Positions 1-63,503 of a DNA stretch of 64,000 nucleotides are shown here, one piece after another. Below the pieces are notes generated by a model that searched no databases, was not told where the DNA came from, and saw nothing but the letters and a program-made list of their open reading frames with translations. Source of the stretch: Octopus vulgaris (lineage: Eukaryota). The stretch spans positions 81,654,001 through 81,718,000 of the forward strand of contig OX597831.1 in the NCBI GenBank assembly GCA_951406725.2, written 5' to 3'. The translations under genes and the position numbers were made by a program. Every line of letters begins with the position of its first letter. The first letter of the stretch is position 1.

Positions 1-63
<63 letters not shown>

Positions 64-796: not shown

Positions 797-1110
797 TTCA
801 TCACCATCACCATCACCATCCTCTTCCTCCTCCTCCTCCTGCTCATCATCATCATCATCATCACCATCCTCCTCCTCCTCCTTCTGCTCATCATCATCAC
901 CATCATCATCACAGTTACCGTCAATATTCAACTTCATCACCATCATCATCATCATAATTGTTACCCTTCTCTTCCATCTTTGCTCCTTCTTTCTCGCAAT
1001 CACCATCATCATCATCATCGTCATCATCATCATCGTCATCATCATCATCATCATCATCATCATACTCCTCCTCCTCCTCCTCCTCCTCCTCAACATCATC
1101 ATCATCATCG
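797..1110. repeat. Compound (CAT)n/(CCT)n triplet low-complexity tract
   Basis: Directly visible; explains the poly-H/S/I/M/D ORFs. Confidence 0.93.
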
Positions 1111-1445
1111 CCAATGCCGTCACTGTTCGGCAGCATCATTGTTGCTACGTCATCGTCAACGTCAGCGATACCAATTCTGCCCCACCCCCTCCTCACACCG
1201 GCTGAAATTATGAATAGTTCGATCGGCAGACACATTTACAGCAAATCTTGTTGCCAATTTTTGGATGCATGATAATCGCGAGTTCGAATCTTGGCCACAT
1301 CTTTAGGATCTTCTTTTGTCTTTCCTCAACATTCATGAATATATGCTTACATTCTCTCTCTCTCTCTCTCTCTGTTTCCCGCACACACACACGCACACAT
1401 ATACGTGCATACACACATATTTGTGCATGTTGTGTGTGTGTGTGT

Positions 1446-1483
<38 letters not shown>

Positions 1484-1545
1484 AACACAAGCACACATGT
1501 GTAGATTGATAGACGTATGTATGAATGTTTGGATACATGTATGTG

Positions 1546-1585
<40 letters not shown>

Positions 1586-2158
1586 GTGTGAGTGTGTGTG
1601 TGTGTGTGTGGTGTGAGTGCGTGTGTGTGTGTGTGAGTGTGAGTGCGTGTGCGTGTGTGTGTGTATGTGTCTGTTGTGCGTACATATTTATGAATGTATA
1701 TGTACGCACACACATATATATTCATATATATGAATGTATATAAAGAGAGAGAGAGAGAGAGAGAGAGAGGGAGTGAGGGAGAGAGACGACAGAGAAACTG
1801 AGAGATAGTAAAAAACAATGAAAAGTGGACAGAATGAAGAAAGAAAAGAAAGAAAATTTCAGGTGGGGGGGGCGGCCGGTGTTAAAAATCAACAGAAAAG
1901 TGATACTAGCTTCATACAATAATGTTGTGAAATGCAGCTATTTAAGTTGTTAACAACATGTAAGATGGCACGGAAGATAACTGATATTTAAAAAGCAACA
2001 AAAAAGAAAGAGAAGAAAACAAAACAAAGAATAATGAAAACCATTAATACAGCAACTACAACAACAACAGCAAGAAAAATGATATAAAAGCAGTTTATAA
2101 AATATACATAAAGTATGCAAAAATAAGTACATTTGCATATGTGTGTGTGTGAATGTAA

Positions 2159-2190
<32 letters not shown>

Positions 2191-2773
2191 GTGTTGTGTG
2201 TGTGTGTACAGTAGAAAACCGCTTGAAAAATAAAAAAAAAATGGACAGCTTGTATGATTAGATTGTGTGTTTTTATTATCAAGTTATGAAAGGGCATAAA
2301 ACTGGCTTCTATGAGCTTTTCTTGGTCAACATCCGCCGTGCCTGAACGAGAAGACGATCAGAACAAACAGCAATCGAATTGAATAATTAATAAATAAACA
2401 ATAATAAAAAAAAACCTACAAATAATAAAAAAAACAAATCAATGCAAATGGATGAAGAATTTCTCAAGACATCGAAACAGCAAAATAACAAAAATTGCTT
2501 TTCCTGCTTTTCGATTTCTTTTTTTTTTTTTTTTGTTTTGTTTTGTGTTTTCATTTTTTAGATTTTTGTATTTTTTTTGTTTTTCTAAAAGCACGGCGTA
2601 GAATCTGGAATACCATAATATAAATTGCGACTTCAGTGACATTTACATGAAGACTAACACATTATCTCTTCGTCGGTTGTTGTTGTTGTTGCTGTTGTTG
2701 TTGTTGTTGTTGTGGTTAATGTAAAATATACGACTTAATGTCTTCATCAAACATTGCACGTTCACCGGGAATA

Positions 2774-3345
2774 CGACGACGACGACGACGACGAAGAAGA
2801 AGAAGAAGAAGAAGAAGAAGAAGAAGAAGGAGTAGAAGAAGAAGAGAAGGAGGAGAAGAAGAAGAAGTAGAAGAAGAAGAAGAAGAGGAAGAAGGAGGAG
2901 GAGGAGGAGGAGGAGGACGAGAAGGAAAAGAAGAAGAAGAAGAAGGAGTAGGAGGAGGAGAAGAAGAAGAAGAAGAAGAAGAAGAAGAAGAAGAGGAAGA
3001 GGAAGAATCAGAAGGAAAAAGAGGAGGAGGAGGAGGAGGAGGAAAAGGAGGAGGAGAAGAAGAAGAAGAAGAAGAAGAAGAAGATTATGAGGAGGAGGAG
3101 GAGGAGGAGGAGTAGAAGATGATGAAGAAGAAGAAGAAGAAGAAGAAGAAGAAGAAGAAGAAGAAGGCAGAAGAAGAAGAAGAAGAAGAAGAAGAAGAAG
3201 AAGAAGAAGAAGAAGAAGAAGAAGAAGAAGAAGAAGAAGAAGAAAAAGATATTTCTGCTGATCATCACGAGAAAGTTGACAATGAGGCGATAACGATGAC
3301 ATCATGCCGGTGGTGATGACGATGATGACGATGACGACGACGGTG
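2774..3345. repeat. Compound (GAA)n/(GGA)n/(GAT)n purine-rich tract
   Basis: Directly visible. Confidence 0.95.
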
Positions 3346-3688
3346 ATAATTATGACGGTGACAATAACTGTCATATGATGGCGAAATGATTTCTGATATC
3401 ATTGACTAGTCCGCCATTTTCTTGGATTGTATATACAATGCTAATGATGATGATGATGATGATGATGATTTCTTATGTAACCAGAAGATGGATTTGGTAT
3501 TAATCTTTATTTTGTACAAGTGTCGTTTCGACTCCTCCCGCTAATGTCCGACTGCGGATGGTAACAGTTAGCCCAGACTGTGCCACTGCCCTACCAAACG
3601 CTTCAACACGCTAATCGACATATACCCATTAGTTCAAAATATCAAATACATATATATACACATATTATCTTCAGGATCTGATAGAATC

Positions 3689-3891
3689 AGGTCGGGTTGC
3701 GGATCCGTGGAACAAGCTGCCAGACGAGATGGTGAAGATGCCGACGACCGCTTTGTTCAAAGCCTCCCTGGACCTCAAGTGGCCTGAACTCTTTACATGA
3801 ACACCACCCTGTACTTAACTCCATGTCCCCCTACATGGCCTTGCTATTTGCTTTTGAGCCAAATTAACTAACTAACTAACTAACTAACTAA
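3689..3891 (+). mobile_element. 3' fragment of a CR1/L2-group LINE with (ACTA)n tail
   Basis: Translates RVADPWNKLPDEMVKMPTTALFKASLDLKWPELFT*, matching the R-x-x-x-x-WN-x-LP...FK-x-x-LD C-terminus of CR1-group ORF2; short 3' UTR, then tandem ACTA. Confidence 0.8.
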
Positions 3892-4227
3892 CATTTAAAT
3901 AGTAAAAGCACCAAGGTAGAGTCAGGAATGTCGCAACAATACCTGCTGACAAATATGTACTTATTAAGGTAAATATGGATTTACCCTTCCAGGTGTGCAC
4001 ACACTCACAAACACTGACAGGATACACAACGTGTATTCAAAGTCACGCAGGTGTACACTCACAACAGGTATGACACACGCGACTCTAGGGGCCAGATTCA
4101 ACGTATGAACGGTCCCAAGCGAAGAATAAGCAGTAACAAAGATGGGTTGACGTTCAATATGGCTGTTTCAGACGTGTTCTTCATTGATGAACAAAAGTGT
4201 TACATCATATTTATAGATATGTGTATG

Positions 4228-4308
<81 letters not shown>

Positions 4309-4423
4309 TGTGTTTATATATATATATATAAAGCATATAATTACATAAATATAATTATAAAATTATATACATTGTATTAATTTTTACCTTAATGGGTAAA
4401 TTGATAGAACCCTTAACTTTAAT

Positions 4424-4834
<411 letters not shown>

Positions 4835-5231
4835 ACCTACAATATATAATTGTCAACCTACCTACCTATCAAAATTTCTGACTTTTCATCTACCTACCTG
4901 TGATCACTCCATTTGTCTATTTGTTTATCTGCTTCTTAATGTAGAAAATGTCCCCACCACTACACACCCAACACCTAACACCCACCATTCGCAGACACTC
5001 ACAAATACAGGTACACACACGCACACACACACACACATCACCAATACTCTGCAGACTCAAGACAACTCCAGTTCTTCGAAAATGGTTGGAAACAACATAA
5101 TGGCGATTAAAGGTAAATAGAAGCGAAAGCTTCATCGTGGCCGGGTTTGTTTTGGTTCTTCTGAATGCACAGCACATACAATATCTACTCACACATATTT
5201 ATAGGTGGACGTATGCATATCTGTGTTAGCG

Positions 5232-5553
5232 CATGTATGTATGTATGTGTGTATGTATGTATGTATGTATGTATGTATGTATGTATGTATGTAGGTATGT
5301 ATGTATGTATGTATGTATTGTATGTATGTATGTATGTGTGTATGTATGTATGTATGTATGTGTGTATGTATGTATGCATGTATGTATATACACATACGCA
5401 CATATACACATACATATACACATACACATACGTATGTATATACACATATGTATGTATGTATGTATATACACATGTATGTATGTATATACACATACGTATG
5501 TATGTATATACACATACATACACATATGTAAGTATGTATATACACACACACAT

Positions 5554-5618
<65 letters not shown>

Positions 5619-5668
5619 AAGAAAGAGAGATATACATATACGCACACACACACATATATATGTACATA

Positions 5669-5722
<54 letters not shown>

Positions 5723-5825
5723 TATATATATACATATATGTATGTATATATATGCATATATGTCTATAAGTATGTATATATGCATGTATGTATTCATGTA
5801 TACATGTGAATGCATGCATATATAT
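5232..5825. repeat. Compound (GTAT)n/(CA)n/(TA)n microsatellite block
   Basis: Directly visible. Confidence 0.95.
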
Positions 5826-6182
5826 TTCTGTGTGTAGTTGTACTCCTGTATTTCTGCGTGTGTCCGTGTGTGTCCGTGTGTCCGTGTGTGTGTGTGAATG
5901 TATAAATGTATGTGACTATGTGTCAAGCTGTAGATCACTAATGGTATGATTAAATGTCTAAGACACTGTTAGACCATCAAATACAAGAATTAAAAGCTAC
6001 TTGGATGCTTTTAAGGTAATCTGCATCCCCTGACACGAGTTCCACATCCGTGACTGACGTCATTAAACATACGACACGTATGTTACCATTCCACTATTTG
6101 CTATTATACACACATACATACATACAGGCATACACACTCACACACTCACACATGCACAGATAGTCAAGGCTGTAAAATGTAT

Positions 6183-7431: not shown

Positions 7432-7586
7432 TATCGTCCGGCCGAGGTTGACTTTGCCTTTCATCCTTTCGAGGTCGATAAATTAAGAACCATTTACGCA
7501 CTGGGGTCGATATAATCGACTTAATCCATTTGTCTGTCCTTGTTTGTCCCCTCTGTGTTTAGCCCCTTGTGGGTAGTAAAGAAATA
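7432..7586 (+). mobile_element. 5'-truncated SINE (family S1, Nin-domain-like core) with Tx1-type tail
   Basis: Core GACTTTGCCTTTCATCCTTTCGAGGTCGATAAA recurs many times in the window; tail TTTGTCCCCTCTGTGTTTAGCCCCTTGTGGGTAGTAAAGAAA. Confidence 0.85.
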
Positions 7587-12985: not shown

Positions 12986-13356
12986 ATACACTTCATTATT
13001 CTATGTCTAATTTTTCTCTAAATAGTCTGTCACAAACTATCTGCTATCCGTCTGTAAAGCATTCTAATCGATGCAAATCATGATCGATCGATCAATACAA
13101 GCTGCATAGTAACAGACACAATCGATCAAACACCTTTCCAAATTGATTTCAGTGTCCTTATCTCATGTTTGGCCAACACAATTCATAAACTTGTCAACGA
13201 AAACTGGTAGATTTTCTCTTTCACCATACATCTTTTGTTTTCGGTTATCGTCCGTAATTCGGTAGACGTATTGTCAAAAACGTCCCAGCCGTGACCATCC
13301 CGTCTTTTTATGTATGCAAAACTACATTAATACAATGTCAATAAGGTACTGCTAAA

Positions 13357-13780
13357 GGCGGCGAGCTGGCAGAAATATTAGCACGCCGGGCGAAATGTTT
13401 AGCAGTATTTCGTCTGTCTTTACGTTCTGAGTTCAAATTCCACCGAGGTCAACTTTGCCTTTCATCCTTTCGATAAATTAAGTACCAGTTGCCTACTGGG
13501 GTCGATCTAATTGACTGGACCCCTCCCCCACAATTTCGGGCCTTGTGCCTAGAATAAAATACTGCTAGTTCAAACACCACCATATTACCTATTCCCAAAA
13601 CTGGCAGAATCGTTGCCGCACCAGGATAAAATGCTTAGCGCCATTTCATTCGTCTCCATTTCTCAGTTCATATTTGCCTTACATCCTTACGGGGGTCGAC
13701 AAAATAAGTGCCCAGTTAATAAATCGACTTATCGCCTTCCCCCAAAATTGCTGGCCTTGTGCCAAACCTTTAAATCAATA
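13357..13780 (+). mobile_element. Two adjacent S1 SINE copies with the alternative (CCCC...GGCCTTGTGCC) tail
   Basis: GGCGGCGAGCTGGCAGAA head, GAGTTCAAATTCC B-box, Nin-like core; a second, more degenerate copy starts at ~13600. Confidence 0.8.
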
Positions 13781-23890: not shown

Positions 23891-24362
23891 TCCTCGTTTT
23901 AACTTGCAGTATTTTGTTCTGCCGCTTTACGTTCTGAGTTCAAATACCGCTAAGGTCAACTTTACTTTCCATCCCTCTGAGGTCGATAGAATTAAGAAAG
24001 AGTCAAGTACCAGGGTCCCTCTAAAACTGGTAATCCTTCTACCAAAATTTGAAACCATTATTATTAGTAGCAGCAGCAGCAGCGGTAGTAGTAGTAGTAG
24101 AATGCGCATCAGACTGGCAGCCTCAGTTCTCATCCAGCCTGTGAAGTTTAGCAATCTATGAACCCCATCGACTCCGCTCTGCCCCATGCCAAGCAAACCC
24201 TTTGCGTGAAACTTGAAACCTCTGTGCAAAATTTTGCAAACGGCCCCGAGATGGCGTTTATCTCTGGTCCTGTTCAAGGGTCATACAACGCCCTGATTAT
24301 CATGTTTTTTGTAGTTGTTACTGTTGTTATTTTTGCTGTTGTAGTAGTAGTAGTAGTTGTTG

Positions 24363-30234: not shown

Positions 30235-30360
30235 TTTTATCAACTCCGAAGAGATGAAAGGCAAAGTCGGTCACGGCGGAATTCGAACTCAGAACGCAGG
30301 GACGGATGAAATACCGCTAAGCATCATGTACGTCTTGCTAACAATTCTGCCAGCTCACCT
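30235..30360 (-). mobile_element. 5' half of an S1 SINE (3' half at ~29045-29102)
   Basis: GATGAAAGGCAAAGTCGG...GGAATTCGAACTCAGAACG is the reverse complement of the S1 core. Confidence 0.75.
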
Positions 30361-32140: not shown

Positions 32141-32834
32141 TATCCTCTATTTAAATTAAACGCCTTTCGAGAGATGCCAAATGTGTCGTTTTTTTCTATT
32201 TTTTTTCCTATATCCACCCTCTTAAGGAAAAACCTACTTCTAAGCGATTTTGATAAGCATTTTCTTTTTGAGCACTATACTTTTAACTTGCAGTTCAAAA
32301 CGGAGTTTTAGTTGTAAACCAAACTGAAAACTCATAATACATACCTATTACATTATGTCAGTTGACGAAGACTGCTTAGATATATTCTCTCTCTCTCTCT
32401 CTCTCTCGCTCCCTCTGTATATGTGTGTGTGTGTGCACGTGTGTTTGTATGTGTATAGATATGATGTATATATAACATACGCACCCACACACACATACAA
32501 ACACACTCACACACACATACACACATATATATGATATATATATTTATGTATATAAATATACGTGTGTATAGATGTATGTATGTATTTATGTGTGTGTACT
32601 ATTTATTAGTGTGATTAAATAAATACAATTTCACATTAAACTGGAGGAATACTTTATACTTCCTAATAAAGTCCTTGTTTGTATAATTTTACAAGGAAAT
32701 GTTTGACAGTGACTGCGAAGTTTCGACATGCTCCCACAATATGTTCAATGTTTTTATTGTCTAATATCTTTTATTTTGTCAATTTCTCACCAACCTGAGT
32801 ATCAGTCAATCTGTCTATCTATCTATCTTTTTAT

Positions 32835-35755
32835 CTCGATCGATAGTATTCATTGACAGACCGGCTCGTAAGTCAAAAGCATTTTTATTGTGTTTTTGAA
32901 AAAGTTTCGTTTCAATTTTTGCACTCGGAGTGTGTAAGACACCCAGCTTTCGTCTGGGTGTGTTTTTCCTAGGGGCAATTTGAGCCTCGATTATATATCA
33001 AAATGTTTGCTTAATAGCTTGTTTTCACACAATGTCGCCGAAGCGTTCCTCATAACGCGTAAACGCTGTTCTTTCTCTCTCGATTGCAACCATTTGTTTA
33101 CGCTTTACATTTTCGGAGTTTTTCAACTTTTCGAACACCCAACTTTCGTTTGGGTGTTTTTTAAATGTAGAATTCGCCGCTAGAGGCATTTTCATCAATT
33201 GATTTTTATTTTTCTCGAAAAAAAAAATGTCGAGAAATTTTATCGTAGAACAATATTCTACGATTTTTTCTAAAGAGGATTTCCCTGTTTTGGAAAAGAC
33301 AGTCAACAAAGACGCTGATATAAAGAAAGCTAAAACTGAAATCAACACCACCAACATCAAAGCTACCATATCTGATAGAACTAACACTGACACAACAACT
33401 GTTAACAACAACAACAACAAAAATGAAGTAAATATAAATGTCCAGAATGTAACGATATATGCTGCCACGGCTGTCTCTTCTGCCACTGACACCACCGCCA
33501 ACACCAACAACAATAACGACAATAACAACAACAATTCCTTTCAGACCTTGTTTCCAAGAACTGAAGGAGAGAAACAAAAGACCGCGACCACCAAACGAAT
33601 TGCCGAAAGCTGCTCAAACGTCATAGATAATTTCTGGCCCATCAATCTGCTCAACGCAGATTTGAAAATTTTGGCCAAGGTGTTCGCCGAGAGGTTGGCG
33701 CTTGTCATCAAGAAACTAGTCGACAAGGCGCAAACATCATAGACAGGGTAGTCAAGAATCCTGGCATGGGTGGGGCGCTGATCAATTTGGATCAATCAAA
33801 AGCTTTCGATAGGGTAGACCATCACTACTTGGAGGCTGTCCTTAAAGCGGCTGGTTTCGGTCCAGTTTTCCGCGATTGGATCGCTGCCTTATACAGCGGC
33901 ATCTGCTCGGTAGTTCGCGTAAATGGTCATCTATTCAGACCTTTTAACATCATGCATTCGGTTCGTCAGGGATGCCCCCTCTCATCGCTTCTGTATGTAT
34001 TGACTCTTGAGCCACTACTGCGGAAACTGGCGACGCTGGGATGCGAGACAAGCGTGTCTGCGTACTCGGGTGACGTCACCGTCATAGTGTCGAGCTACCA
34101 GCACATCGAGCTGGTCGGCGAGGCACTAAAAGAATACGAAGCGGTAACGGGAGCAAAAATTAACCAGGAAAAGTCAGTGGGCTTGCGGCTCGGCACCTGG
34201 AGAAGCAGGCCCATGCCATCCAACAGCATCTCCATCGTGGGACGCTGGACCGACGGACCGGTTAAATTGCTCGGGGTCTGGTTCGGTCCGGATCTCCAAA
34301 TGGAGAAGAACTGGGGCGAAATAATGATTAGGGTGGCTACTCTCACCCAGAAATGGGCTGAGAGAAAGCTATCCCTAAAAGGTCGGGCGGAGGTGGCGAA
34401 CGCGTACATCGCATCCGTCATCGAGTATCGCCTGACCGTCGTGCCTTGTCCCGACCCTACCATCACAAAACTGGAACGTATCCCCTTCCGCTTCCTGTGA
34501 AAGGGAAACGTTCCGATGGTTAGGCGATCCATTTGCTGTCAACACCCGCTAAATGGAGGGCTGGACATGCCGTGGTTAATGATGCGCAGACATGCACTGA
34601 GACTGCGACATCTCCGGCGCTTCATAGACGATGGTGAACAGGTGTGGTCGCTTTTTGTGCGACGCGCTTTCCCGCAGCTCATCTCCTTGGCCGACCTACA
34701 ATCGTGGATTAAACAGAGACCGAGGCTAGGCGAATGGCACCGCGAGTGTCGCGTTGCTCTCAAGCAACTATGCCGTCCGGTATCAAACTTGTGCGACTCC
34801 ATCACAACAAAGGCATTCTATAGAGTATTAGTGGAGGGGAGGTGCGACGACGAACTCGGGTAGTCTGGGCGTCGACGAGGAACACCTGATTTGCCTGTTC
34901 AGGACAACTTTCGGGCCGGGACCTATGAACAATCACCAAAGATCCCTGGCCTGGCAGTGCTATCGAGAAGCATTAACTGTTCGGGATAAGCTCTACAGAC
35001 ACGGTTCCAGACACACTGGACCGACTTGCCCGAGATGCGGTCAGAGCGACGAAACCGTTCTGCACGCACTCGAGCAATGTCCAACCATTTCAGACCTGTG
35101 GGCTTATGCCGAACGGCTGCTGTCACGTGTGGACGAGTCCGCCTGTCGGTCGAGTCTATCGGGAAATTGCACCACCCCCTTCCCTCAACCGGGAAGGCAA
35201 GGCAGTCTTCATCGTACTGGTAGCTATGGTGAAAGAATGTGTGTGGTGGACTCGAGCGAAAGGATTAGAGACAAACACCTTACCTCTCTGGCCAATCGCT
35301 CATCAACTTTTCAAGAACCACTTGAAAACGAAGGTGAGAATGGAGAGGAAGTTTTGTCTCGCGAAAGATTCAAAAAAAGATGGGTGAATGTTGGAAAGAT
35401 GGTGCGTGCGAGTGACGAAACAATTTTGAGCATGACCCTGTAAATCGTAAAAAAGAGACAGAGAGAGCATTTTGCTCTCATGTGGTTATTCCCTCCCTGA
35501 CTGAGGTTCCCGTGGTCTTTTCTGTAGGCTTTTCTTCCCACGGATGAACCCAGTCTTGTTTTATCAATGTTTTTTTTTTTTTAAAGTGTTTCTGTGATAC
35601 ACGATTCCTTTTTTTTTACCTTTTTTTTTCTCTCGATCCCTTTTGATCAAAATCTTACCTTTATTTTCCTTTTTCTTTTCCACCCTCGAAAAGAAAAGCT
35701 CTACATTTGTATTTGTCCCCTCTGTATTCAGCCCTGTGTGGCTAATAAAAGAAAG
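32835..35755 (+). mobile_element. Tx1/L1-clade LINE, copy 1 (putative 5' UTR and ORF1 start joined directly to the RT/zinc-finger half)
   Basis: WPINLLNADLKILAK, LDQSKAFDRVDH, RQGCPLS, YSGD in place of YADD, KINQEKS, CPRCG...ETVLHAL-x-x-C; ends AATAAAAGAAAG into (TATC)n. Confidence 0.9.
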
Positions 35756-35787
35756 TTATCTATCTATCTATCCATCGATCTATCTAT

Positions 35788-35841
<54 letters not shown>

Positions 35842-35850
35842 GTCTGTTTG

Positions 35851-35913
<63 letters not shown>

Positions 35914-36472
35914 GTCTGTCTGTCTGTCTGTCTGTCTGTATGTCTGTCTGTCTGTCTGTCTGCTGTATCTATCTACACACGCACACACACACATATTGTT
36001 TTTCATCAACAGAAGTTACCAAGTGCCTTAACGATCCACAATCTCGTGCAATGTTATTATAGACGGTCTGACTTACAGTGATAATTATAATTCTCTCGGG
36101 ATCATTCGAGAAAAATTAGAATTTGAGGGTCACGTGAATAATGTATATTTTTTTCAAACAGTCTGATTCCCAAAACGTATTTTTGTCTATGTTTATATAT
36201 GTGCGTGTATTCATGCGTGTACATGTGTGTATATATGTATATGGGTATATATATGCGTGCGTATGTGTATAGGTGTGTGTGTGTGAGTAAGTGTTTGTGT
36301 TTGTCTGCGTGTGTGATTCTATGCATACTGTCTCTCGTATTTTAAAAATAAAATATATAGAATACATATATATTTAACAATGCATATAGACACATATAAT
36401 ACACACCACATATACATATACACACATGCACAAAAGCAATATATATAAATATATATACACACACATATATAT

Positions 36473-36552
<80 letters not shown>

Positions 36553-36565
36553 GTATGTATATGTA

Positions 36566-36935
36566 TATTCTGTTGTGTCTGGAGAGAGAGTCATTGCCTT
36601 TTGGTGCCTGATCACTTAACACACTCACCGGTAAAATTTCCACTCGTTAACTAATTTATTTTTCTAAAATTTTCTTTGCGTCTTGCAACCTTTTCAATAT
36701 TTGTTGACTCCGTTCGTTATTCAAGCTGCGTTCTCTCTTGAATAACGAACGGAATCAACAAATATTAAAAAAGGTTTTCAAGACGCGACGACCTTTTAAG
36801 AGAAAATAAATTAGTAAACGAGACCATTGTTAAGCAATCCAGGCACACGAAAATTTCCCCAGAACAACAGGGTATGCTCAACACACGAACTCATATAAAG
36901 AGTCTTGCAAAATGCAAACCAAAAAAAAGACGAAA
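36566..36935 (+). mobile_element. Fold-back element, family C (copy 1, right arm corrupted)
   Basis: Duplicate of 43144-43521. Confidence 0.65.
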
Positions 36936-37059
36936 TATACATATGTATAAAATAGTTAACATACACACATACACACAAATCCCAGAGAAGGCCATACTTA
37001 TATCTATAAATAGAGAAGTGCCTTGACACTTATGTATTTTTATATGTATACCTGGTGGA

Positions 37060-37092
<33 letters not shown>

Positions 37093-38513
37093 TGTGAAGA
37101 GTTGTAGACATTTCTCAACGCTAACTCTTCATTCAGATGAACTCCAACTATACATATCGAAGACATGAAAGTACTATTTATCACTATAAACAATGTCCAT
37201 GTGCCAATAGTGAGTGCGTTTGAATGCTTGTAAAGGCTTGTGTGAGTAAAAATGTGCGATTATACTATTTTGGAAACCACAGTCTGTAGCCATAAAAACT
37301 GGGTAAATAACAATAGAATTTCTTTATTTCTACACTTGGCATTACATCATGAAGATATAAAAAAAATAACCCGGTTCATCCTATGTATTGTGTGTGTGTG
37401 ACCACAAGTTATATGTGGTCGTCGGAGGCAGAGAGAGTGGGGGGGGTCCACGTTGCTACATATTGAAGGGAAGCAGTGAGCAAACATCTAAAAGACTGCA
37501 AATCTGAACCAGAAGCAAGAGAAACGATACGAGAACTGAACAACAGCAGCCGGAAATAAAAACAAATAAACGTGTTTACTGATCTTTTTTTCACCACTTT
37601 TTGAAGGGAACAAACCGCACCAAACAAACAACCACACCAACTGCAGCACCAAGAACCAGAAGCAGCATCACCAACAACATACAACCAAGGAATATACCAA
37701 CTCCCAAACCAAGGACATCACCAAAAAGACACCCAGCATATAAATGAAGAAACAATTACAACAAATACAAAATTGACGAGCTCCTAAACAACACAACAAT
37801 ACCCACAATCACTCAAAAACAAAATACCCAAACCCCACATCCAAAACCGCATACACCACAACCAAACAACTCACCAACCAACACCAACAACAAAACCATA
37901 CACAGTCGACAATATATTTTATGATACTTTCCCTCTTATACTCGATTCGTCTGATCTGTCATTAGACATATTTAGAAGACACAGAAGATTGGCAAATATA
38001 CAGGGGGAGAACATAAAAGGAAAAAAAAGAAAGAACAAAAATAACAAACAAAGTCAGTTTGGGGCGAAGATACATTCTGCCACTCCCGAAACAAAAACAT
38101 CCACAGAAAACACACACATCAACACAAACACACCATCATCAAACCCCCCAAAAATGTTGACAGCCATTAACATCAAACAACCACGACCTAATGGTCACAC
38201 ATTATTAAACTCTGTGTATTTACAGTATGACTGCAACATAAAAACAAGTAACCACCAATTCCTTGTAACACCACCACAACACATTAGTTGTCAATGATGC
38301 CTTTGACGTGACTTCTGCCGATCACATACAGCACCACAAATCTCTTTACCTGATGCAATAGGGAGATTTCAAAAGTACTCTAAATCTCATCGAAAAAACT
38401 GTATAAAAGCCTCATAGAAGATTAGACCGTGAGGTGAAAGACAATTAGAACTTTCGGATTTCTCATATAAACAAGTAACCTTTTCTCTCTCCTTTTCCTT
38501 TTTTGTTTTAAAT

Positions 38514-41500
38514 ATGTTGTCCAGAATAGGTAGTATAAATGTACGTGGCTTGGTTTGAGTAATCTCCTTAAAACAATTTTACCTGTTAAATGACATCAAG
38601 TCACTAAATCTGAATATCTTAGCCATCAGTGAGACCAGACTCCACAGCTTTTGGGCATTCCAGTTATTCGCTATATCCTGATACAAACACATTTGTTACT
38701 GAATTTTTCAATATTTCTCCGTGTCTACCGAGAATGGGCGGAGGTATTTATCTGGAATGCAAAACAGGACACCAGTCCTGGATCTCAAAGTAAAGAGATA
38801 GCAAATTTCCTAGACCCGGAGAGAGAAAGCTGGTCGTTTTAGATGTCGATGGCAGCAATGAGTACATTCGCTTTACATATACTGATAGCAGTTTATGCTC
38901 CGTCCTTAACAGGCCGACCAGTACATTTTACACGACGTCTAGAGTCTTTCATGGGAACGTCTCGTCCTTTACTTTTAGTGGGGGATTGGAATAAAGCCAC
39001 CCTGGACACGCATCTAGACTACGTGAGCAGAGACAGCAATAGAAGGGGATGCAAATGCCTCAAAGACATGCTCAGACGTTTCCAACTGTCTGACAGGTAC
39101 ACACTGGATACCCACATGTTGTAATGTGGACATGGAGTAACCGCATCGGGTCGTCCAGATCATACTTAGATAGAGTATTCTGACAGGACAATAGATAAAA
39201 ATGGTTTGTAGGTTGTCCAAACAATTTCCACTTTAGTCAGTTACGTATCACCAGGATTGAATGGTACTTGTACACTTGATTTTTGTTAAGACACATAGGC
39301 AGGGTCCTTGGTTACTGGAAACTGAACGCGTCTTTTACAGCACGACAGGTTTACAGGGATCCCGGATCAACACATTTAGTTAAGAGAGCTTTGACGCGTA
39401 CCATCATCAACAACAGATCAAGGCTGGTACTGCACTAAAGCGATTAAAGCAAGAATATTTAGTCAGATACAGTAGAGCCCTAGCATTAGACCGAAATGAG
39501 AGGATAGTTATGTTGGAGTTAGTTAAGTTTAGATATGGAAAACTTAGCATCTGGCATCGCGTCCAACGTACTGGCGGCGAGATTGGCCCTCGACCAACAC
39601 CTCAACGCCAAACACAGAAATAAATGCGTTGTCAGAGCTAGGATGCGTGCTCTGAGGAACGAAGGAGTTGGAGCCGCCCAAGAGGCCCGAGGTGTTTTGG
39701 AGACGCATTATGCAACAGAGCCACCATCAAGTCTCTTATAGATGAACAGGGGCGCGAATTACTCAGGCCAAGGATGTGTGGGGTATTTTCAGCAACACTT
39801 CACCCAACTGTTTGGGACAAGTGGTGAGTCAGAAAGCAGTTAGTTTAGTGGACTATTAGTGCCTACCTGACATGCCTTTGCCACGACTCTCAGCAAGGGA
39901 GGTGAGTCTTGTGAAAAGCCTATCACAGCTGCGGACGTACAGGATGCGATGGTAGGCTGCGCGTGTTGGAACAAGTCACCAGGCTTGGATGGTCTGCCCT
40001 ACGAATTTTATTTTCATATGCCAGACTTGTTTGGAGGCGTCTTGGCAGCTGTCTACTGCAACTGGCAGCCAGAACGACGAGTATTCCTGCTTTTGTAAAG
40101 CGACGTCATAGATAATTTCTGGCCCATCAATCTGCTCAACGCAGATTTGAAAATTTTGGCCAAGGTGTTCGCCGAGAGGTTGGCGCTTGTCATCAAGAAA
40201 CTAGTCGACAAGGCGCAAACATGCGCCGTGCCGGGTATAGACAGACAACCTCCATCTGATGCGCTAGTCAAGGGTAATCCTGGCATGGGTGGGGCGCTGA
40301 TCAATTTGGATCAATCAAAAGCTTTCGATAGGGTAGACCATCACTACTTGGAGGCTGTCCTTAAAGCGGCTGGTTTCGGTCCAGTTTTCCGCGGTTGGAT
40401 CGCTGCCTTATACAGCGGCATCCGCTCAGTAGTTCGCGTAAATGGTCATCTATCCAGACCTTTTAACATCATGCGTTCGGTTCGTCAGGGATGCCCCCTC
40501 TCATCGCTGCTGTATGTATTGACTCTTGAGCCACTACTGCGGAAACTGGCGACGCTGGGGCATCCCACGAGAGCTGGGATGCGGGAGGAGCGTGTCTGCG
40601 TACGCGGATGACGTCACCGTCATAGTGTCGAGCTACGAGCACATCGAGCTGGTCGGCGAGACACTAAAAGAATACGAAGCGGTAACGGGAGCAAAAATTA
40701 ACCGGGAAAAGTCAGTGGGCTTGCGGCTCGGCACCTGGAGAAGCAGGCCCATGCCGTCCAACAGCATCTCCATCGTGGGACGCTGGACCGACGGACCGGT
40801 TAAATTGCTCGGGGTCTGGTTCGGTCCGGATCTCCAAATGGAGAAGAACTGGGGCGAAATAACGATTAGGGTGGCTACTCTCACCCAGAAATGGGCTGAG
40901 AGGAAGCTATCCTAAAAGGTCGGGCGGAGGTGGCGAACGCGTACATCGCATCCGTCATCGAGTATCGCCTGACCGTCGTGCCTTGTCCCGACCCTACCAT
41001 CACAAACTGGAACGTATCCCCTTCCGCTTCCTGTGGAAGGGAAACGTTCCGATGGTTAGGCGATCCATTTGCTGTCAACACCCGCTAAATGGAGGGCTGG
41101 ACATGCCGTGGTTGATGATGCGCAGACATGCGCTGAGACTGCGACATCTCCGGCGGCTTCATAGACGACGGTGAACAGGTGTGGTCGCCTTTTGTGCGGC
41201 GCGCTTTCACGCAGCTCGTCTCCTTGGTCGAACTACAATCTTGGATCAAACAGAGACCGAGGCTAGGCGAATGGCACCGCGAGTGTCGCGTTGCTCTCAA
41301 GCAACTATGCCGTCCGGGATCAAACTTGTGCGACTCCATCACAACAAAGGCATTCTATAGAGGATTAGTGGAGGGGAGGTGCGACGACGAACTCGGGTAG
41401 AGTCTGGGCGTCGACGAGGAACACCTGACCTGCCTGTTCAGGACAACTTTCGGGCCGGGACCTATGAACAATCACCAAAGATCCCTGGCCTGGCTATCGA

Positions 41501-42290
41501 GAAGCATTAACTGTTCGGGATAAGCTCTACAGACACGGTTCCAGACACACTGGACCGACTTGCCCGAGATGCGGTCAGAGCGACGAAACCGTTCTGCACG
41601 CACTCGTGCAGTGTCCAACCATTTCAGACCTGTGGGCTTATGCCGAACGGCTGCTGTCACGTGTGGACGAGTCCGCCTGTCGGTCGAGTCTATCGGGGAA
41701 ATTGCACCACCCCCTTCCCTCAACCGGGAAGGCAAGGCAGTCTTCATCGTACTGGTAGCTATGGTGAAAGAATGTGTGTGGTGGACTCGAGCGAAAGGAT
41801 TAGAGACAAACACCTTACCTCTCTGGCCAATCGCTCATCAACTTTTCAAGAACCACTTGAAAACGAAGGTGAGAATGGAGAGGGAAGTTTTGTCTCGCGA
41901 AAGATTCAAAAAAAGATGGGTGAATGTTGGAAAGATGGTGCGTGCGAGTGACGAAACAATTTTGAGCATGACCCTGTAAATCGTAAAAAAGAGACAGAGA
42001 GAGCATTTTGCTCTCATGTGGTTATTCCTCCCTGACTGAGGTTCCCGTGGTCTTTTCTGTAGGCTTTTCTTCCCACGGATGAACCCAGTCTTGTTTTATC
42101 AATGTTTTTTTTTTTTTTTAAAGTGTTTCTGTGATACACGATTCCTTTTTTTTCCCTTTTTTTTCTCTCGATCCCTTTTGATCAAAATCTTACATTTATT
42201 TTCCTTTTTCTTTTCCACCCTCGAAAAGAAAAGCTCTACATTTGTATTTGTCCCCTCTGTATTCAGCCCTGTGTGGCTAATAAAAGAAAG
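38514..42290 (+). mobile_element. Tx1/L1-clade LINE, copy 2: frameshifted ORF2 (APE endonuclease, RT, zinc finger) and 3' UTR
   Basis: IGSINVRGL, LAISET, AVYAP, LVGDWN, YLDRV, GYWKLN, KSPGLDGLPYEFY, YADD at 40601-40612; ends into (TATC)n. Confidence 0.92.
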
Positions 42291-42312
42291 TTATCTATCT
42301 ATCTATCCATCC

Positions 42313-42470
<158 letters not shown>

Positions 42471-43055
42471 GTCTGTCTGTCTGTCTGTATGTCTGTCTGT
42501 ATGTCTGTATGTCTGTCTGTCTGTCTGTCTGCTTATCTATCTACACACGCACACACACACATATTGTTTTCCATCAACAGAAGTTACCAAGTGCCTTAAC
42601 GATCCACAATCTCGTGCAATGTTATTATAGACGGTCTGACTTACAGTGATAATTATAATTCTCTCGGGATCATTCGAGAAAAATTAGAATTTGAGGGTCA
42701 CGTGAATAATGTATATTTTTTTCAAACAGTCTGATTCCCAAAACGTATTTTTGTCTATGTTTATATATGTGCGTGTATTCATGCGTGTACATGTATGTAT
42801 ATATGTACATGGGTATATAAATACGCGCGCGTATGTGTATAGGTGTGTGTGTGAGTAAGTGTTTGTGTTTGTCTGCGTGTGTGATTCTATGCATACTGTC
42901 TCTCGTATTTTAAATGAAAAATATGAAATAAAATATATAGAATACAAGAGACAGCATGCATATAGTCACACATATACATACACACCCATAGACACATACA
43001 CACACATGCACAAAATCATATATATATAAATATATATACACACACATACATATAT

Positions 43056-46272: not shown

Positions 46273-46429
46273 TATAAATATTTATATATATGTATGTATT
46301 TATATATATATGTATATATATATCCATCCATCCATACATACATACATCTTGGATCATATGTGTAATGAGTAAAGGCCGACCTGGGGTTAAACGGCAAAAC
46401 GACGACGTTACGGTGTTGGTTTGGTAACA

Positions 46430-46656
46430 AGGGCGAGCTGGCAGAATGGTTAACACACCGGGCGAAATGCGTCGCCGTATTTCGTCAGCCGCTACGTTCT
46501 GAGTTCAAATTCCGCCGAGGTCGACTTTACCTTTCATCCTTTCGGGGTCGATTAAATAAGTACCAGTTACGCACTGGGGTCGATGTAATTGACTTAATCC
46601 GTTTGTCTGTCCTTGTTCGTCCTCTCTGTGTTTAGCCCCTTGTGGGTAGTAAACAA
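46430..46656 (+). mobile_element. Full-length S1 SINE with Tx1-type tail
   Basis: GGCGAGCTGGCAGAATGG A-box region, GAGTTCAAATTCC B-box, Nin-like core, tail as at 7543. Confidence 0.87.
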
Positions 46657-46880
46657 ACAGGTTTGGTAACACTGTATATGAGTATAGGTGAGTGTGTGTG
46701 TATATGTGTGTGTATGCATGTGTGTGTGTGTGAGTGCAAATACGAATACACAAGTATGTAATTTAGCGAGTAACAACAATACTATAGAAACACACCTACA
46801 AGTGCCTATGCGTATATGTGTACACAAACACACGCATGTATGTACACGTGTGTGCAAGCGTGCATGCATTTCTACCTGTG

Positions 46881-48460: not shown

Positions 48461-48461
<1 letters not shown>

Positions 48462-48682
48462 GCTGGCAGAAACGTTAGCGCACAGGGCGAAATGCTTAGC
48501 GGTATTTCATCTGTCGTTACGTTCTGAGTTCAAATTCCGCTGATGTCGACTTTGCCTTTCATCATTTCGGGGTCGATAAATAAAGTACCAGTTTCGCACT
48601 GGGGTCGATGTAATCGACCTAATCCCTTTGTCTGTCCTTTTTGCCCCCTCTATTTTTAGCCCCTTGTGGTTAGTAAAGAAAT
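48461..48682 (+). mobile_element. S1 SINE with Tx1-type tail inserted in (TATC)n
   Basis: Same family as 46430; TATC repeats on both flanks. Confidence 0.87.
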
Positions 48683-48741
48683 ATATCTATCTATCTGTCT
48701 ATCTAACTATCCATCTCTCTCTCTCTCTCTGTCTCTCTCTG

Positions 48742-58530: not shown

Positions 58531-60041
58531 GAAGCTCTTGCTTATTTTTGGTGCATATTCGCAGTGTGAATGAGTTTTCGCTGCTGTTTCTAGCTGGTCG
58601 AGTGACTAAGTGAGGACTCGTTGTCAGCTCGTGAGTTGTTGTTGTTGTTGCTGGTGATGGAGCGGCTTTACTCCGGTCAGCTCTAACCATGCTGACCCAC
58701 GACCAAAGGTATCCAGCCGTGACCATCCTACATTTTTCTTATATTTTATACATACAAATGTGTTCTTCCATTTGTTTTTTTTTTAACAGTGCGGTGTGCT
58801 TTGTGGGTTATTTTATCTGCTCTTTTTAGATGGTCAAGCCACTACGTGAAGGAGCCCTCCTTGACAGCCACAACATGTTGTATAGGCTGACATCCAGCGT
58901 TAAGCACGGTCTATTGGTTCCGTGTAAATCAACCTAAACGGAAAATTATTTTAAGTCCACGACGGCAGGATTTGAACTCAGAATCTGAAACGACGATGAT
59001 GAACACTGCACCACCACATTTTAGTGAACCTTTACTGAATTTTACTTTTTCTGAGATTGGTTTTTGTTCTTAATTACTTCCTGATACTTTAGTGTTCAGT
59101 CGATGATAACCTAAGGAGAAGCATTAACATCACAACATCTCATTTCATTGTTCCCAATTAATAAACAACGAATCTGCAACATAGTTGTTGAAGAATCATT
59201 AGAACGTCGGCTTTTTACATTCTGGGTTGAAATCCCGCCGATGCCTTTCAAAAATATCAAAAGAGGTACCAGTCAAATACTGGGGCCGATGTAATCGACT
59301 TGGCTCTTCCTCTCGAAATTGCTGTGGTCTTGAACCCAGCAACGGACAGTCGTTCAGTTCAAGGGAATATTGCCACATGCTGGTAACTGAGAAGCCATTG
59401 AGTCCTACTTTAAATGCCGATAGTCATGGCTAGTCCTTCATCTTCCTACTTCCAGTTATACACAAGACTTGATTCAATCGATTGTCCCAATCACTGAATG
59501 GTTCCAGGTCAATATTATACTAGTAATGGCAATCTCTTGTCGATGTCTTTGTAGTGTCTCCTACATTTGATGTAACTCTCATTCCTCACTTAATAAACCG
59601 GCCACTTTTTCGACTTCGCAATCTTTTCTCTTCTGGGCATCATACAATAATATGAACACAATAAATTCTTTGAGCACAGTGCCAATGATACAGTTTCGGT
59701 CTCTCTTTAGAACTATTTCACTTCGCTTATAAGTGGAACTACCAATGTCTCATGTTGCCAGTTGTCCATTTTGATTTAGCTTGTTCACTCCTAGGACTTG
59801 CAATGCCCTTTTCATATTTCAGGAAAAGCACGGGAAGCAACAAGCCGGAATAAACAGCGCCAAAACGTTTCGTCTGATGCTCTAACGACCGATTCTACAT
59901 GACTTGCCAATTCGAAGGGAAGCGGTATCGTTCATGCTGTTCTTAGGGGCCATCACTAAAGGAGCGCTACTGATTAATAATGGCATGTACATAAGTGAAT
60001 AAATATAAATAACACAAACACAGCTTGACAATGTAAGAGGT

Positions 60042-62795: not shown

Positions 62796-63503
62796 GTATA
62801 TATGTATATATATAAATATATAATCTATATATAATGTATATGTATATATGTCTCTGCTAGTTGTTCTTTGTCGTAGTGGAAGGTCTCAGTGTTCTGAAGG
62901 CTCTGCGATCAATGCCATCGGGAATCTAGTACTACATTACAGAAAGCAAGTAAATGTAAATCCATTTTGTTTATCTCTCTACACACATAAAATAAAGGAG
63001 ATTACCGCGACATTTCTCATGACTGGTTAGCCTATATTGCGAGGATAAATACCGCTCTGCCTTCGAAAAGAAAATGATAGCAATCGCTATTTAAAACAAA
63101 TACAAACTACGACTTAACTGGAATGACTAGACTACATCACATTCTATACATTTGCAGATGCTGTGATAAATAATTAACCATTCTGCCAACGTTTTTTGAG
63201 AGCGGTTCGATAGGTTTCACCTCAAAACATTCAGATTTGAAATAGATGCGGCATCTGAACATCCAATCAACCCTCCACTCCTTTCCAATTGTAGTTTTCT
63301 TTTTTATCGACCCTGAAATGATGAAAGACAAAACTGACGTAACAAGGATTTGATCTAGGAACGCAAGCTGTTGAAATATTCATGTACGTATGTCTGTTTG
63401 TCTGTGTGTGCATGTGAATGTATGTGTCTATGTATGAAGATACACAGACGTACAGAGAGAGAGAGAGAGAGAGAAAGAAAGAAATATGTACATTACTATC
63501 TAT

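What the first reader, a model, noticed from the sequence alone, without database searches (positions are those of the whole stretch)
7543..7584. A SINE borrowing the 3' end of a Tx1/L1-clade LINE
The S1 tail TTTGTCCCCTCTGTGTTTAGCCCCTTGTGGGTAGTAAAGAAA matches the LINE end TTTGTCCCCTCTGTATTCAGCCCTGTGTGGCTAATAAAAGAAA (35712-35754, 42247-42289) at 36/43 by hand count. The copy at 48461 also sits in (TATC)n like the LINE. Tail-sharing SINE partners are mostly known for CR1/L2/RTE LINEs; a Tx1 partner is unusual (inference of mobilisation).
Basis: partly seen in the sequence, partly recalled or inferred. Interest (0 to 1): 0.72.

Follow-up and report, generated by a model that had tools for sequence, protein, structure and literature searches.

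The report
SINE carrying a Tx1-type LINE tail

Summary
The S1 tail at 7543-7584 matches the LINE end at 35712-35754 at 36 of 43 (BLAST E 2e-6), and both stretches are the very 3' ends of their elements. The tail is a fixed part of S1: 29 of 30 copies picked by their head alone end in it, and the genome holds 56,745 exact 25-base tails.

The LINE is a young L1/Tx1-like family (APE endonuclease, RT, zf-RVT) that inserts into (TATC)n. All 44 copies examined carry the tail followed by TTATCT.

The pairing is only partly right. At least ten related LINE families share a three-tier hairpin plus AATAAAGAAAT end. S1 matches the families with ORF2 of 1131-1133 aa better (41 of 45; 25 of 27 terminal) than the window LINE (35 of 45; 20 of 27). 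S1 inserts at dispersed AT-rich sites with direct repeats of 12-20 bp. Only about 0.14% of S1 tails adjoin (TATC)n, which is chance level, so the copy at 48461 is a coincidence.

S1 therefore took a Tx1-type tail, likely from a relative of this LINE. Earlier notes of this scan reached the same reading on other windows of this genome. I found no paper describing such a pair.

The parts
7441..7586 (+). S1 SINE copy, 5'-truncated.
   Evidence: blastn to the 48461 copy: 88% over 146 nt. Sequence read.
48461..48685 (+). S1 SINE copy inside a (TATC)n array. It lacks the first ~8 nt of the family's head.
   Evidence: other copies start GGCGGCGAGCTGGCAG.
46430..46659 (+). S1 SINE copy at an ordinary site, flanked by the 12-bp direct repeat GGTTTGGTAACA (46418-46429 and 46660-46671).
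33618..35757 (+). (TATC)n-specific L1/Tx1-like LINE, copy A. It covers the RT C-terminal part, zf-RVT and the 3' UTR. The conserved tail is 35712-35755, followed by the (TATC)n array.
   Evidence: Aligns to positions 3931-6136 of the 6136-nt full-length copy in L073 at 90%. Pfam RVT_1 and zf-RVT.
36923..42292 (+). Same LINE family, copy B. It lacks about 930 nt at the 5' end and its frames are broken. The tail is 42247-42290, followed by (TATC)n.
   Evidence: Aligns to positions 928-6136 of the L073 element at 85.7%. 94% identical to copy A over 2.4 kb.
35714..35752 (+). Predicted three-tier 3' stem-loop of the LINE RNA: outer UCU/AGA, middle UAUU/AAUA, inner AGCC/GGCU, loop CUGUGU.
   Evidence: RNAfold -7.4 kcal/mol. 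Pairing across 25 tails: 86% of cells paired, against 41-51% when the 3' partners are slid.
7559..7572 (+). Inner hairpin of the S1 tail (GCCC / CUUGU / GGGU). It is the same stem and loop as in the LINE families with ORF2 of 1131-1133 aa.
13355..13559 (+). S2: a second SINE family with the same head and body as S1 but a different Tx1-type tail (hairpin GGGC / CUUGU / GCCU, then AGAATAAAA...). The 8-bp direct repeat TACTGCTA flanks it.
   Evidence: 18 exact genomic copies of the tail, all 18 with the SINE body upstream.

Best explanation
S1 ends in a 45-60-base copy of the structured 3' end shared by a clade of L1/Tx1-like LINEs of this genome. It is likely reverse-transcribed by members of that clade whose tails match it best (41 of 45), not by the (TATC)n-specific LINE in the window (35-36 of 43-45).

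Shown:
- The tail homology.
- The tail is constant within S1 and within the LINE family.
- The hairpin architecture is shared, with compensatory changes between families.
- The ranking of families by tail identity.
- The integration patterns of S1 and the window LINE differ.

Inferred:
- S1 RNA (probably a Pol III transcript) presents the hairpin plus AAUAAAGAAAU end to a LINE ORF2 protein. That protein nicks a target and primes cDNA on the tail (target-primed reverse transcription), leaving direct repeats of 12-20 bp.
- The direction of borrowing was LINE to SINE. The module is spread over LINE families that differ by over 40% in ORF2, while two SINE families with one head and body (S1, S2) carry two different versions of it.
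- The present helper is a family that inserts at dispersed sites, such as F1132a.
For: Tail homology:
- 36/43, E 2e-6.

S1 tail constancy:
- 29 of 30 loci chosen with a head-only query end in the same motif.
- 56,745 exact 25-nt tails; the reversed-pattern control gave 0.

LINE tail constancy:
- 30 of 30 tail-selected loci, 11 of 11 RT-selected loci and 3 of 3 full-length copies.
- The last ~70 nt stay the same in full-length copies whose 308-nt 3' region is only 81-85% identical to the window copy.

Identity of the S1 majority tail to LINE tails:
- Window LINE: 35/45, 20/27.
- F1132b (L175) and L176: 41/45, 25/27.
- L255: 40/44.
- Family C (L142): 51/62, with 29 nt upstream identical.

Phylogeny:
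- In the ORF2 tree the TATC and ATT families are sisters (71% identity). The families with ORF2 of 1125-1148 aa are 56-57% identical to the TATC family, and tail types follow the tree.

Structure:
- 86.2% of 260 cells paired, against 41-51% for slid partners.
- 0 of 500 shuffles reach the covariation score.
- Inner stems differ between families yet still pair: GCCC/GGGU, AGCC/GGCU, UAAGAUU/AAUCUUA, CCCUU/AAGGG, UCCU/AGGA.

Insertion behaviour:
- S1 lies at dispersed AT-rich sites, with direct repeats of 12-20 nt in 21 of 27 loci.
- F1132a copies lie at unrelated sites, with 15- and 16-bp direct repeats at 2 of 3 visible 5' junctions.
Against: - No sampled LINE has the exact S1 tail. All have GGGTAATAAAG where S1 has GGGTAGTAAAG, and none joins S1's upstream TTGTCTGTCC duplication to the GCCCC hairpin.
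- The better-matching LINE families are rare. One tail pattern gave 32 exact hits and an upstream motif gave 117. S1 has at least 57,000 copies, and the TATC family gave 2,439 first-look candidates.
- Most sampled relatives are themselves site-specific, which fits a dispersed SINE poorly.
- LINE tails were sampled from a few dozen loci, not from the whole genome.
- Cross-mobilisation by the abundant TATC family cannot be excluded, since the hairpin architecture is shared.
- No expression or transposition data were obtained.
Confidence: 0.65

Rival explanations
1. One reading: the (TATC)n-specific LINE of the window is itself the donor of the S1 tail and its mobiliser.
For: - 36/43 identity at both 3' ends.
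- Same three-tier hairpin layout.
- The family is abundant and young, with dozens of copies holding an open 1159-aa ORF2.
- Roughly 80 S1 copies do sit in (TATC)n with clean junctions, several with the array on both sides.
Against: - Ten of the 15 other tails compared match S1 better.
- The inner stem and the end motif differ: AGCC/GGCU and AATAAAAGAAAG against GCCC/GGGU and AGTAAAGAAAT.
- All 44 LINE copies are followed by TTATCT. Only about 0.14% of S1 tails adjoin the array, no more than the 0.21% array content of sampled DNA.
- Of 30 head-selected S1 loci, only the query itself lies in (TATC)n.
Confidence: 0.12
2. The donor and helper of S1 is an extinct or unsampled LINE family carrying the exact S1 tail. 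The living families seen here are all only cousins, and S1 may no longer move.
For: - No sampled LINE has the S1-specific G in GGGTAGTAAAG, or the full 62-nt S1 tail.
- S1 looks like a mosaic of family C (upstream half) and the GCCCC-hairpin families (terminal half).
- The best head-selected copies are 94-96% identical to the window copy, not identical.
Against: - Only a few dozen LINE 3' ends were sampled out of 25,804 zf-RVT candidates, so absence is weak.
- 184-bp head-to-tail S1 arrays with exact junctions suggest fairly recent activity: 1,892 exact junction matches.
Confidence: 0.25
3. The similarity arose by chance, by convergence, or by LINEs picking up a SINE tail (the reverse direction).
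For: Short AT-rich ends can look alike. The end motif AATAAAGAAA resembles a polyadenylation signal.
Against: - E 2e-6 in the window alone.
- Identity rises to 41/45 with other families.
- The module sits at the end of LINE families with 56-71% ORF2 identity and tracks their tree. That is the pattern expected of inheritance within LINEs.
- Two SINE families with the same head and body carry two different LINE-type versions.
Confidence: 0.04

Closest known systems
L1-clade SINE/LINE pairs with a shared structured 3' end: maize/sorghum ZmSINE2 and ZmSINE3 with LINE1-1_ZM, and Chlamydomonas SINEX-3_CR with L1-1_CR (Ohshima 2012, PMC3472496; passages read)
   Same: - The SINE shares about 45-80 nt with the 3' end of an L1-clade LINE.
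- The end is far better conserved than the rest of the LINE.
- A hairpin has variable stem letters but conserved loop and flank.
- This is read as 'stringent' template recognition.
   Different: - Those pairs are in plants and a green alga and end in poly(A).
- Here the host is an animal and the ends are not poly(A).
- The LINE relatives are mostly site-specific.
- One SINE tail sits among at least ten related LINE tails.
SINEU and Tx1-Mar LINEs of crocodilians (Kojima 2015, PMC4494074; abstract and passages read)
   Same: A SINE is assigned to Tx1-type LINEs. The Tx1 relatives are target-specific, including microsatellite-specific families.
   Different: - There the link rests on a shared insertion target (Mariner-N4_AMi) and shared snRNA-derived heads.
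- Here it rests on a shared 3' tail, and S1 does not share the window LINE's target.
Classical stringent pairs outside L1 (CR1, L2, RTE partners; for example the eel UnaSINE1/UnaL2 work cited as Kajikawa and Okada 2002 in PMC4494074; recalled, not read)
   Same: The SINE tail is copied from the LINE 3' UTR. A terminal stem-loop is needed for recognition.
   Different: A different LINE clade. No experiment exists for the present pair.
Microsatellite-specific Tx1 families Kibi (TC)n and Koshi (TTC)n, and the crocodilian (TTCC)n/(TTTC)n families (as described in PMC4494074; passages read)
   Same: The window LINE inserts into a microsatellite and has the array on both sides of full-length copies.
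   Different: - The target here is (TATC)n, and a sister family takes (ATT)n.
- I did not see these targets named in the passages read.
- Membership of the Tx1 subclade was not tested.
Octopus SINEs OR1, OR2 and OK (Ohshima and Okada 1994; known to me only through citations in PMC4824008 and PMC4758252, not read)
   Same: Abundant SINEs of octopus described as tRNA-derived, one of them a CORE-SINE. S1's body resembles the CORE domain as I recall it.
   Different: No sequence of OR1, OR2 or OK was on hand, so identity with S1 is untested. The citing passages name no LINE partner.

Membership tests
SINE/LINE pair with a common 3' tail (stringent recognition) | The SINE's 3' end is homologous to the 3' end of a LINE of the same genome | tested here: met
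   36/43 with the window LINE. Up to 41/45 and 40/44 with other families.
SINE/LINE pair with a common 3' tail (stringent recognition) | The tail is a constant part of both families, not of single copies | tested here: met
   S1: 29 of 30 head-selected loci. LINE: 44 of 44 copies.
SINE/LINE pair with a common 3' tail (stringent recognition) | Conserved terminal stem-loop supported by compensatory changes | tested here: met
   86% of cells paired against 41-51% for slid controls; 0 of 500 shuffles reach the score. At least five different inner stems all pair.
SINE/LINE pair with a common 3' tail (stringent recognition) | SINE and partner share the very 3' terminus or repeat and the insertion behaviour (tested for the window LINE as partner) | tested here: not met
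   The LINE is followed by TTATCT(ATCT)n in 44 of 44 copies. S1 is followed by AT or AG and then unrelated sites. About 0.14% of S1 tails adjoin (TATC)n, against 0.21% background.
SINE/LINE pair with a common 3' tail (stringent recognition) | The LINE protein mobilises the SINE through the tail | not testable with these tools
   Needs a retrotransposition assay.
L1/Tx1 group of non-LTR retrotransposons | N-terminal APE-type endonuclease, RT and C-terminal zinc-binding region in ORF2, with a separate ORF1 | tested here: met
   Exo_endo_phos 20-236, RVT_1 522-770 and zf-RVT 992-1045 in the 1159-aa ORF2. The upstream ORF has a weak CCHC knuckle, E 0.002 and below Pfam's cut-off.
L1/Tx1 group of non-LTR retrotransposons | RT groups with L1 rather than with other clades | tested here: inconclusive
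   Human L1 ORF2p is the best solved relative (E 2.7e-61 over residues 16-871), against R2 at 2e-19. This is a similarity ranking, not a phylogeny with all clades.
Tx1 subclade | RT phylogeny with named Tx1 references (RTclass1 / Repbase) | not testable with these tools
   No named Tx1 sequence came back. A 2026 annotation of Octopus vulgaris lists 13 recently active L1-Tx1 families (PMC13282606, passages read), but I cannot link them to this family.
Tx1 subclade | Target-specific insertion | tested here: met
   (TATC)n on both sides of 3 of 3 full-length copies. At L011 the insertion lies at a lone TATC-containing site, read by eye, with an apparent direct repeat ATCTGTA. The sister family lies in (ATT)n.
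tRNA-derived CORE-SINE (octopus OR1/OR2 type) | Head recognisable as a tRNA | tested here: not met
   Rfam found no match at E<=1 and ARAGORN found no gene in a full copy. A B-box-like GAGTTCAAATTCC is visible by eye only.
tRNA-derived CORE-SINE (octopus OR1/OR2 type) | CORE central domain, or identity with the published OR sequences | not tested
   No reference sequence was on hand. The resemblance to CORE is recalled. SINEBase supplements could not be read.

The most novel reading that the evidence does not exclude
A radiation of at least ten Tx1-like LINE families in this genome uses one modular 3' RNA 'handle': a three-tier hairpin plus AAUAAAGAAAU that ORF2p recognises. A few family-specific bases matching each family's landing site follow it ((TATC)n, (ATT)n, fixed spots in other repeats, even the S1 head). 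S1 captured the handle without an address. That let a family of at least 57,000 copies spread genome-wide on the enzymes of otherwise site-restricted LINEs. It would mean that target choice in this clade depends largely on pairing between the RNA 3' end and the nicked target, rather than on the endonuclease alone.
Probability: 0.2. Interest if true: 0.75.

Novelty: new member of a known kind. Interest (0 to 1): 0.5.

Why it matters
SINEs that copy a LINE's 3' end are textbook for CR1, L2 and RTE. For the L1 group they are very rare. Ohshima 2012 found three SINEs with L1 tails among more than 800 L1-clade LINE entries, all in plants or algae.

An animal case with a covarying hairpin would show that stringent template recognition survives in the Tx1 side of the L1 group. 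It would also name the likely engine behind the SINE expansion that dominates octopus genomes, where SINEs are 11.6% of the O. vulgaris assembly (PMC13282606). Those SINEs are currently annotated without a LINE partner.

The many site-specific relatives with one common handle would make a natural system for asking how such LINEs choose RNA and target.

Tried and rejected
- **LINE at the S1 self-insertion site:** I searched the junction AAAGAAATAGGTAT|TTCGTCTG. There were 1,892 exact hits, but all 30 loci read were SINE-in-SINE.
- **A database homologue as a probe for other families:** P0006 is from another organism. It only found the TATC family again, at 43% identity.
- **Clade names:** The search for homologous proteins and the protein atlas gave no Tx1 or L1 names. 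Placement as L1 versus Tx1 stays open.
- **tRNA origin of the head:** Rfam and ARAGORN found nothing.
- **SINEBase supplements for OR1/OR2:** not readable here.
- **Other papers opened for a partner of an octopus SINE:** the MetaSINE, Jigsaw-SINE, bivalve HCD-SINE and Petrosino 2022 papers hold no octopus Tx1-SINE pair in the passages found.
- **5' junctions of truncated TATC-LINE copies:** 3 of 6 clear junctions have (TATC)n upstream and 3 do not. This alone does not settle target versus self-made tail. The full-length copies and the L011 site do.
- **An exact S1-type tail on a LINE:** not found among 30 tails of the clade with ORF2 of 1131-1133 aa.

Full report
**Observation.** A blastn of the last 258 nt of the LINE against the whole window finds, apart from the two LINE copies, only 35712-35754 against 7543-7584. 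The match is 83.7% over 43 columns, which is 36/43, at E 2e-6. Both stretches are the extreme 3' ends of their elements. The S1 copy at 48461-48685 does lie inside a (TATC)n array.

**The SINE.** The window holds three S1 copies with this tail:
- 7441-7586, which is 5'-truncated.
- 46430-46659, flanked by a 12-bp direct repeat.
- 48461-48685.

To test the tail without bias I searched the genome (G000, 2.8 Gb; the window is C18:81654001-81718000) with the first 140 nt of S1 only. There were 2,472 first-look candidates, and the 40 scored were 94-100% identical. In the 30 loci returned, 29 end in the same motif. One is cut short inside the tail. The exact 25-nt end occurs 56,745 times, and the reversed control occurs 0 times.

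S1 copies start GGCGGCGAGCTGGCAG. They end ...AGTAAAGAAAT followed by AT (19 of 27) or AG (7 of 27). In 21 of 27 loci they are flanked by direct repeats of 12-20 nt at unrelated, AT-rich sites. Some of those repeats lie in low-complexity DNA, which inflates their length. Rfam and ARAGORN do not recognise a tRNA in the head. A B-box-like motif is visible only by eye.

**The LINE.** Copy A (33618-35757) and copy B (36923-42292) align to positions 3931-6136 and 928-6136 of a 6,136-nt full-length copy. Full-length copies carry:
- an upstream ORF with a weak CCHC knuckle;
- a 1159-aa ORF2 with Exo_endo_phos, RVT_1 and zf-RVT.

The best solved relative is human L1 ORF2p, at E 2.7e-61 over endonuclease and RT. 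R2 proteins follow at 2e-19. Dozens of copies keep the 1159-aa frame open, so the family is young.

All 30 loci found with the 3' 308 nt, all 11 loci found with an RT fragment and all 3 full-length copies end in the same tail, followed at once by TTATCT. What follows ranges from one unit to long arrays. The three full-length copies have (TATC)n on both sides. At L011 the insertion sits at a lone TATC-containing site next to (TA)n, with an apparent short direct repeat read by eye.

The family therefore targets (TATC)n. Tx1 in the strict sense could not be tested, because no search returned a named Tx1 reference.

**The tail is a family trait of many LINEs.** A scan for zf-RVT found 25,804 candidates, and the open frames among the 150 scored matches were of many lengths. 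I read the 3' ends of 30 loci and of 19 longer stretches. At least ten families end in a hairpin followed by AATAAAGAAAT or a near variant:
- The families with ORF2 of 1131-1133 aa have GCCCCTTGTGGGTAATAAAGAAAT, or ...GGGTAATAATAAAAC.
- The 1131/1148/1125/1130 group has GCCCCTAGTGGGTAAT(A/T)AAGAA.
- The 1138 family has a quite different stem (AAGATT...AATCTT).
- Family C has CCT/AGG-type stems.
- A 1135-aa family ends ...CAGCCCTTGTGGCCAATAAAAAAGAAT and sits in (ATT)n.

RNAfold gives the same three-tier layout in most of them: an outer UCU/AGA helix, a middle UGU(U)/(A)AUA helix and an inner variable stem.

On a MAFFT alignment of 25 tails, 86.2% of 260 cells form standard pairs. The figure is 41-51% when the 3' partners are slid by 1-3 columns. 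None of 500 shuffles reaches the observed covariation score or the paired fraction. MAFFT misregisters the most divergent inner stems, so these counts understate the pairing.

**Which LINE does S1 resemble?** Against the S1 majority tail, the window LINE scores 20/27, 35/45 and 42/62. F1132b (L175) and L176 score 25/27, 41/45 and 49/62. Family C scores 51/62, because 29 nt upstream of the hairpin are identical to S1. In a further sample of 30 tails of the clade with ORF2 of 1131-1133 aa, the best is 40/44. None has S1's G in GGGTAGTAAAG.

In an ORF2 tree the TATC and ATT families are sisters (71% identity). All the GCCCC-hairpin families are 56-57% identical to the TATC family. Tail type follows this tree. 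S1 therefore carries the tail type of a different branch from the window's LINE.

**Targets.** Only the query itself among the 30 head-selected S1 loci lies in (TATC)n. The S1 end followed within 8 nt by three TATC units gave 122 hits. Reverse-strand hits were reported twice, so these are roughly 80 sites, or about 0.14% of exact tails. Perfect arrays of at least 3 units make up 0.21% of 367 kb of flanks sampled around unrelated repeats, and 2.0% of this window. The sample is not random DNA, so this null is rough. Even so, there is no sign of enrichment, and the 48461 copy is best read as a coincidence in an array-rich window.

S1 does have one preferred site, a fixed position in the head of other S1 copies. 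The junction there gave 1,892 exact hits against 0 for the control. All 30 loci read are SINE-in-SINE, often in 184-bp head-to-tail runs.

Among the relatives, several are site-specific:
- The same flank follows L166, L167, L169 and L177.
- The same flank follows L159-L161.
- The same flank follows L164, L168 and L175.
- The S1 head at CAGAAACG follows L179, L182 and L183.

F1132a copies, by contrast, lie at unrelated sites. Two of three visible 5' junctions show direct repeats of 15 and 16 bp, which is the behaviour S1 shows.

**Reading.** The tail was most likely taken from a LINE of the GCCCC-hairpin branch, and S1 likely uses ORF2 proteins of that branch. The window's LINE shares the architecture through common descent. 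The direction LINE to SINE is inferred for two reasons. The module is spread over deeply diverged LINE families. A second SINE family with the same head and body (S2, window 13355-13559) carries another version of it, whose end resembles the ATT-family tail: 18 exact tails, all 18 with the SINE body upstream.

Weak points:
- The donor with the exact tail was not found.
- The better-matching families are rare (32 and 117 exact pattern hits).
- LINE sampling was small.
- Nothing was tested at the RNA or protein level.

**Literature.** Ohshima 2012 (PMC3472496, passages read) reports 58 SINEs with LINE tails. [quoted passage not shown] Kojima 2015 (PMC4494074, abstract and passages read) assigns crocodilian SINEU to Tx1-Mar through a shared target, and lists microsatellite-specific Tx1 families.

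Two cephalopod repeat papers list L1-Tx1 and tRNA-Core SINEs in octopus. PMC13282606 contains neither the word 'tail' nor 'partner'; in PMC8967140 I searched only for 'L1-Tx1' and 'SINE', and the passages name no LINE partner. Searches found no paper describing an octopus SINE with a Tx1 tail. Repbase, Dfam and the 1994 paper on the octopus SINEs could not be consulted, so prior description there remains possible.

Earlier notes of this scan on other windows of the same genome reached the same reading. One of them also says that the neighbouring LINE is only a relative of the helper. I tested these points independently here.

**Verdict.** This is a new animal member of the rare class of L1-group SINE/LINE tail pairs, and of moderate interest.

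Noticed in passing
window 32826-42600; loci L073-L075: The LINE is a (TATC)n-specific family. Full-length copies of about 6.1 kb have the array on both sides. Many places lie 5-6.5 kb apart on one contig, which suggests head-to-tail stacks, like copies A and B here. Window 32826-33617, upstream of copy A, does not match the L073 element. By eye it matches the sequence that follows the tail array in L009, so it may be the 5' end of another subfamily.
   Followed up: partly
L170 (G000:C12:98718-105973): A sister family (ORF2 1135 aa, 71% identical) ends ...CAGCCCTTGTGGCCAATAAAAAAGAATTG and runs straight into a long (ATT)n array. It is likely a second microsatellite-specific family.
   Followed up: partly
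window 13355-13559: SINE family S2 has the same head and body as S1 with a different hairpin tail (GGGC/CUUGU/GCCU, then AGAATAAAAAAGAAT in most copies). There are 18 exact tails in the genome. The tail resembles the (ATT)n LINE's end, so SINE tails appear to have been swapped between Tx1-type donors.
   Followed up: partly
G000, e.g. C1:201058384-201059150; loci L082-L111: S1 inserts into the head of other S1 copies at one fixed position (...GGTAT|TTCGTCTG). The junction gave 1,892 exact hits and builds 184-bp head-to-tail arrays.
   Followed up: partly
L179, L182, L183: LINE tails of the GCCCC-hairpin type abut the S1 head at ...|(A/C)AGAAACGTTAGC. Some LINE families therefore seem to land at a fixed spot in the SINE head, as earlier notes of this scan say.
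   Followed up: partly
L166, L167, L169, L177; L159-L161; L164, L168, L175; L142, L189, L203: Four further groups of LINE copies are each followed by one shared flank (GAAATTCGGCAAAGAA...; GGAAGCGACACCTACTGG...; ...GTTCGTCTTCGCTACGTAAGGTTGG...; ...CTTTCGACTCCAGACC...). These point to more site-specific families whose targets I did not identify.
   Followed up: no
window 36677-36788: A nearly perfect inverted repeat of about 50 nt per arm (tgcgtcttgcaaccttttcaata...). A similar palindrome ends locus L064, so it may be a small foldback or MITE-like repeat.
   Followed up: no
window 13601-13674, 23927-23996, 30236-30354 (-), 59266-59299, 63300-63366 (-): Weaker matches (76-82%) to the S1 head or body only. 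These are probably older or different SINE families that share the module.
   Followed up: no
window as a whole: Perfect (TATC)>=3 arrays cover 2.0% of the window, about ten times the 0.21% seen in 367 kb of other sampled DNA. The window is also rich in (TA)n, (CA)n and (CCAT)n runs.
   Followed up: partly
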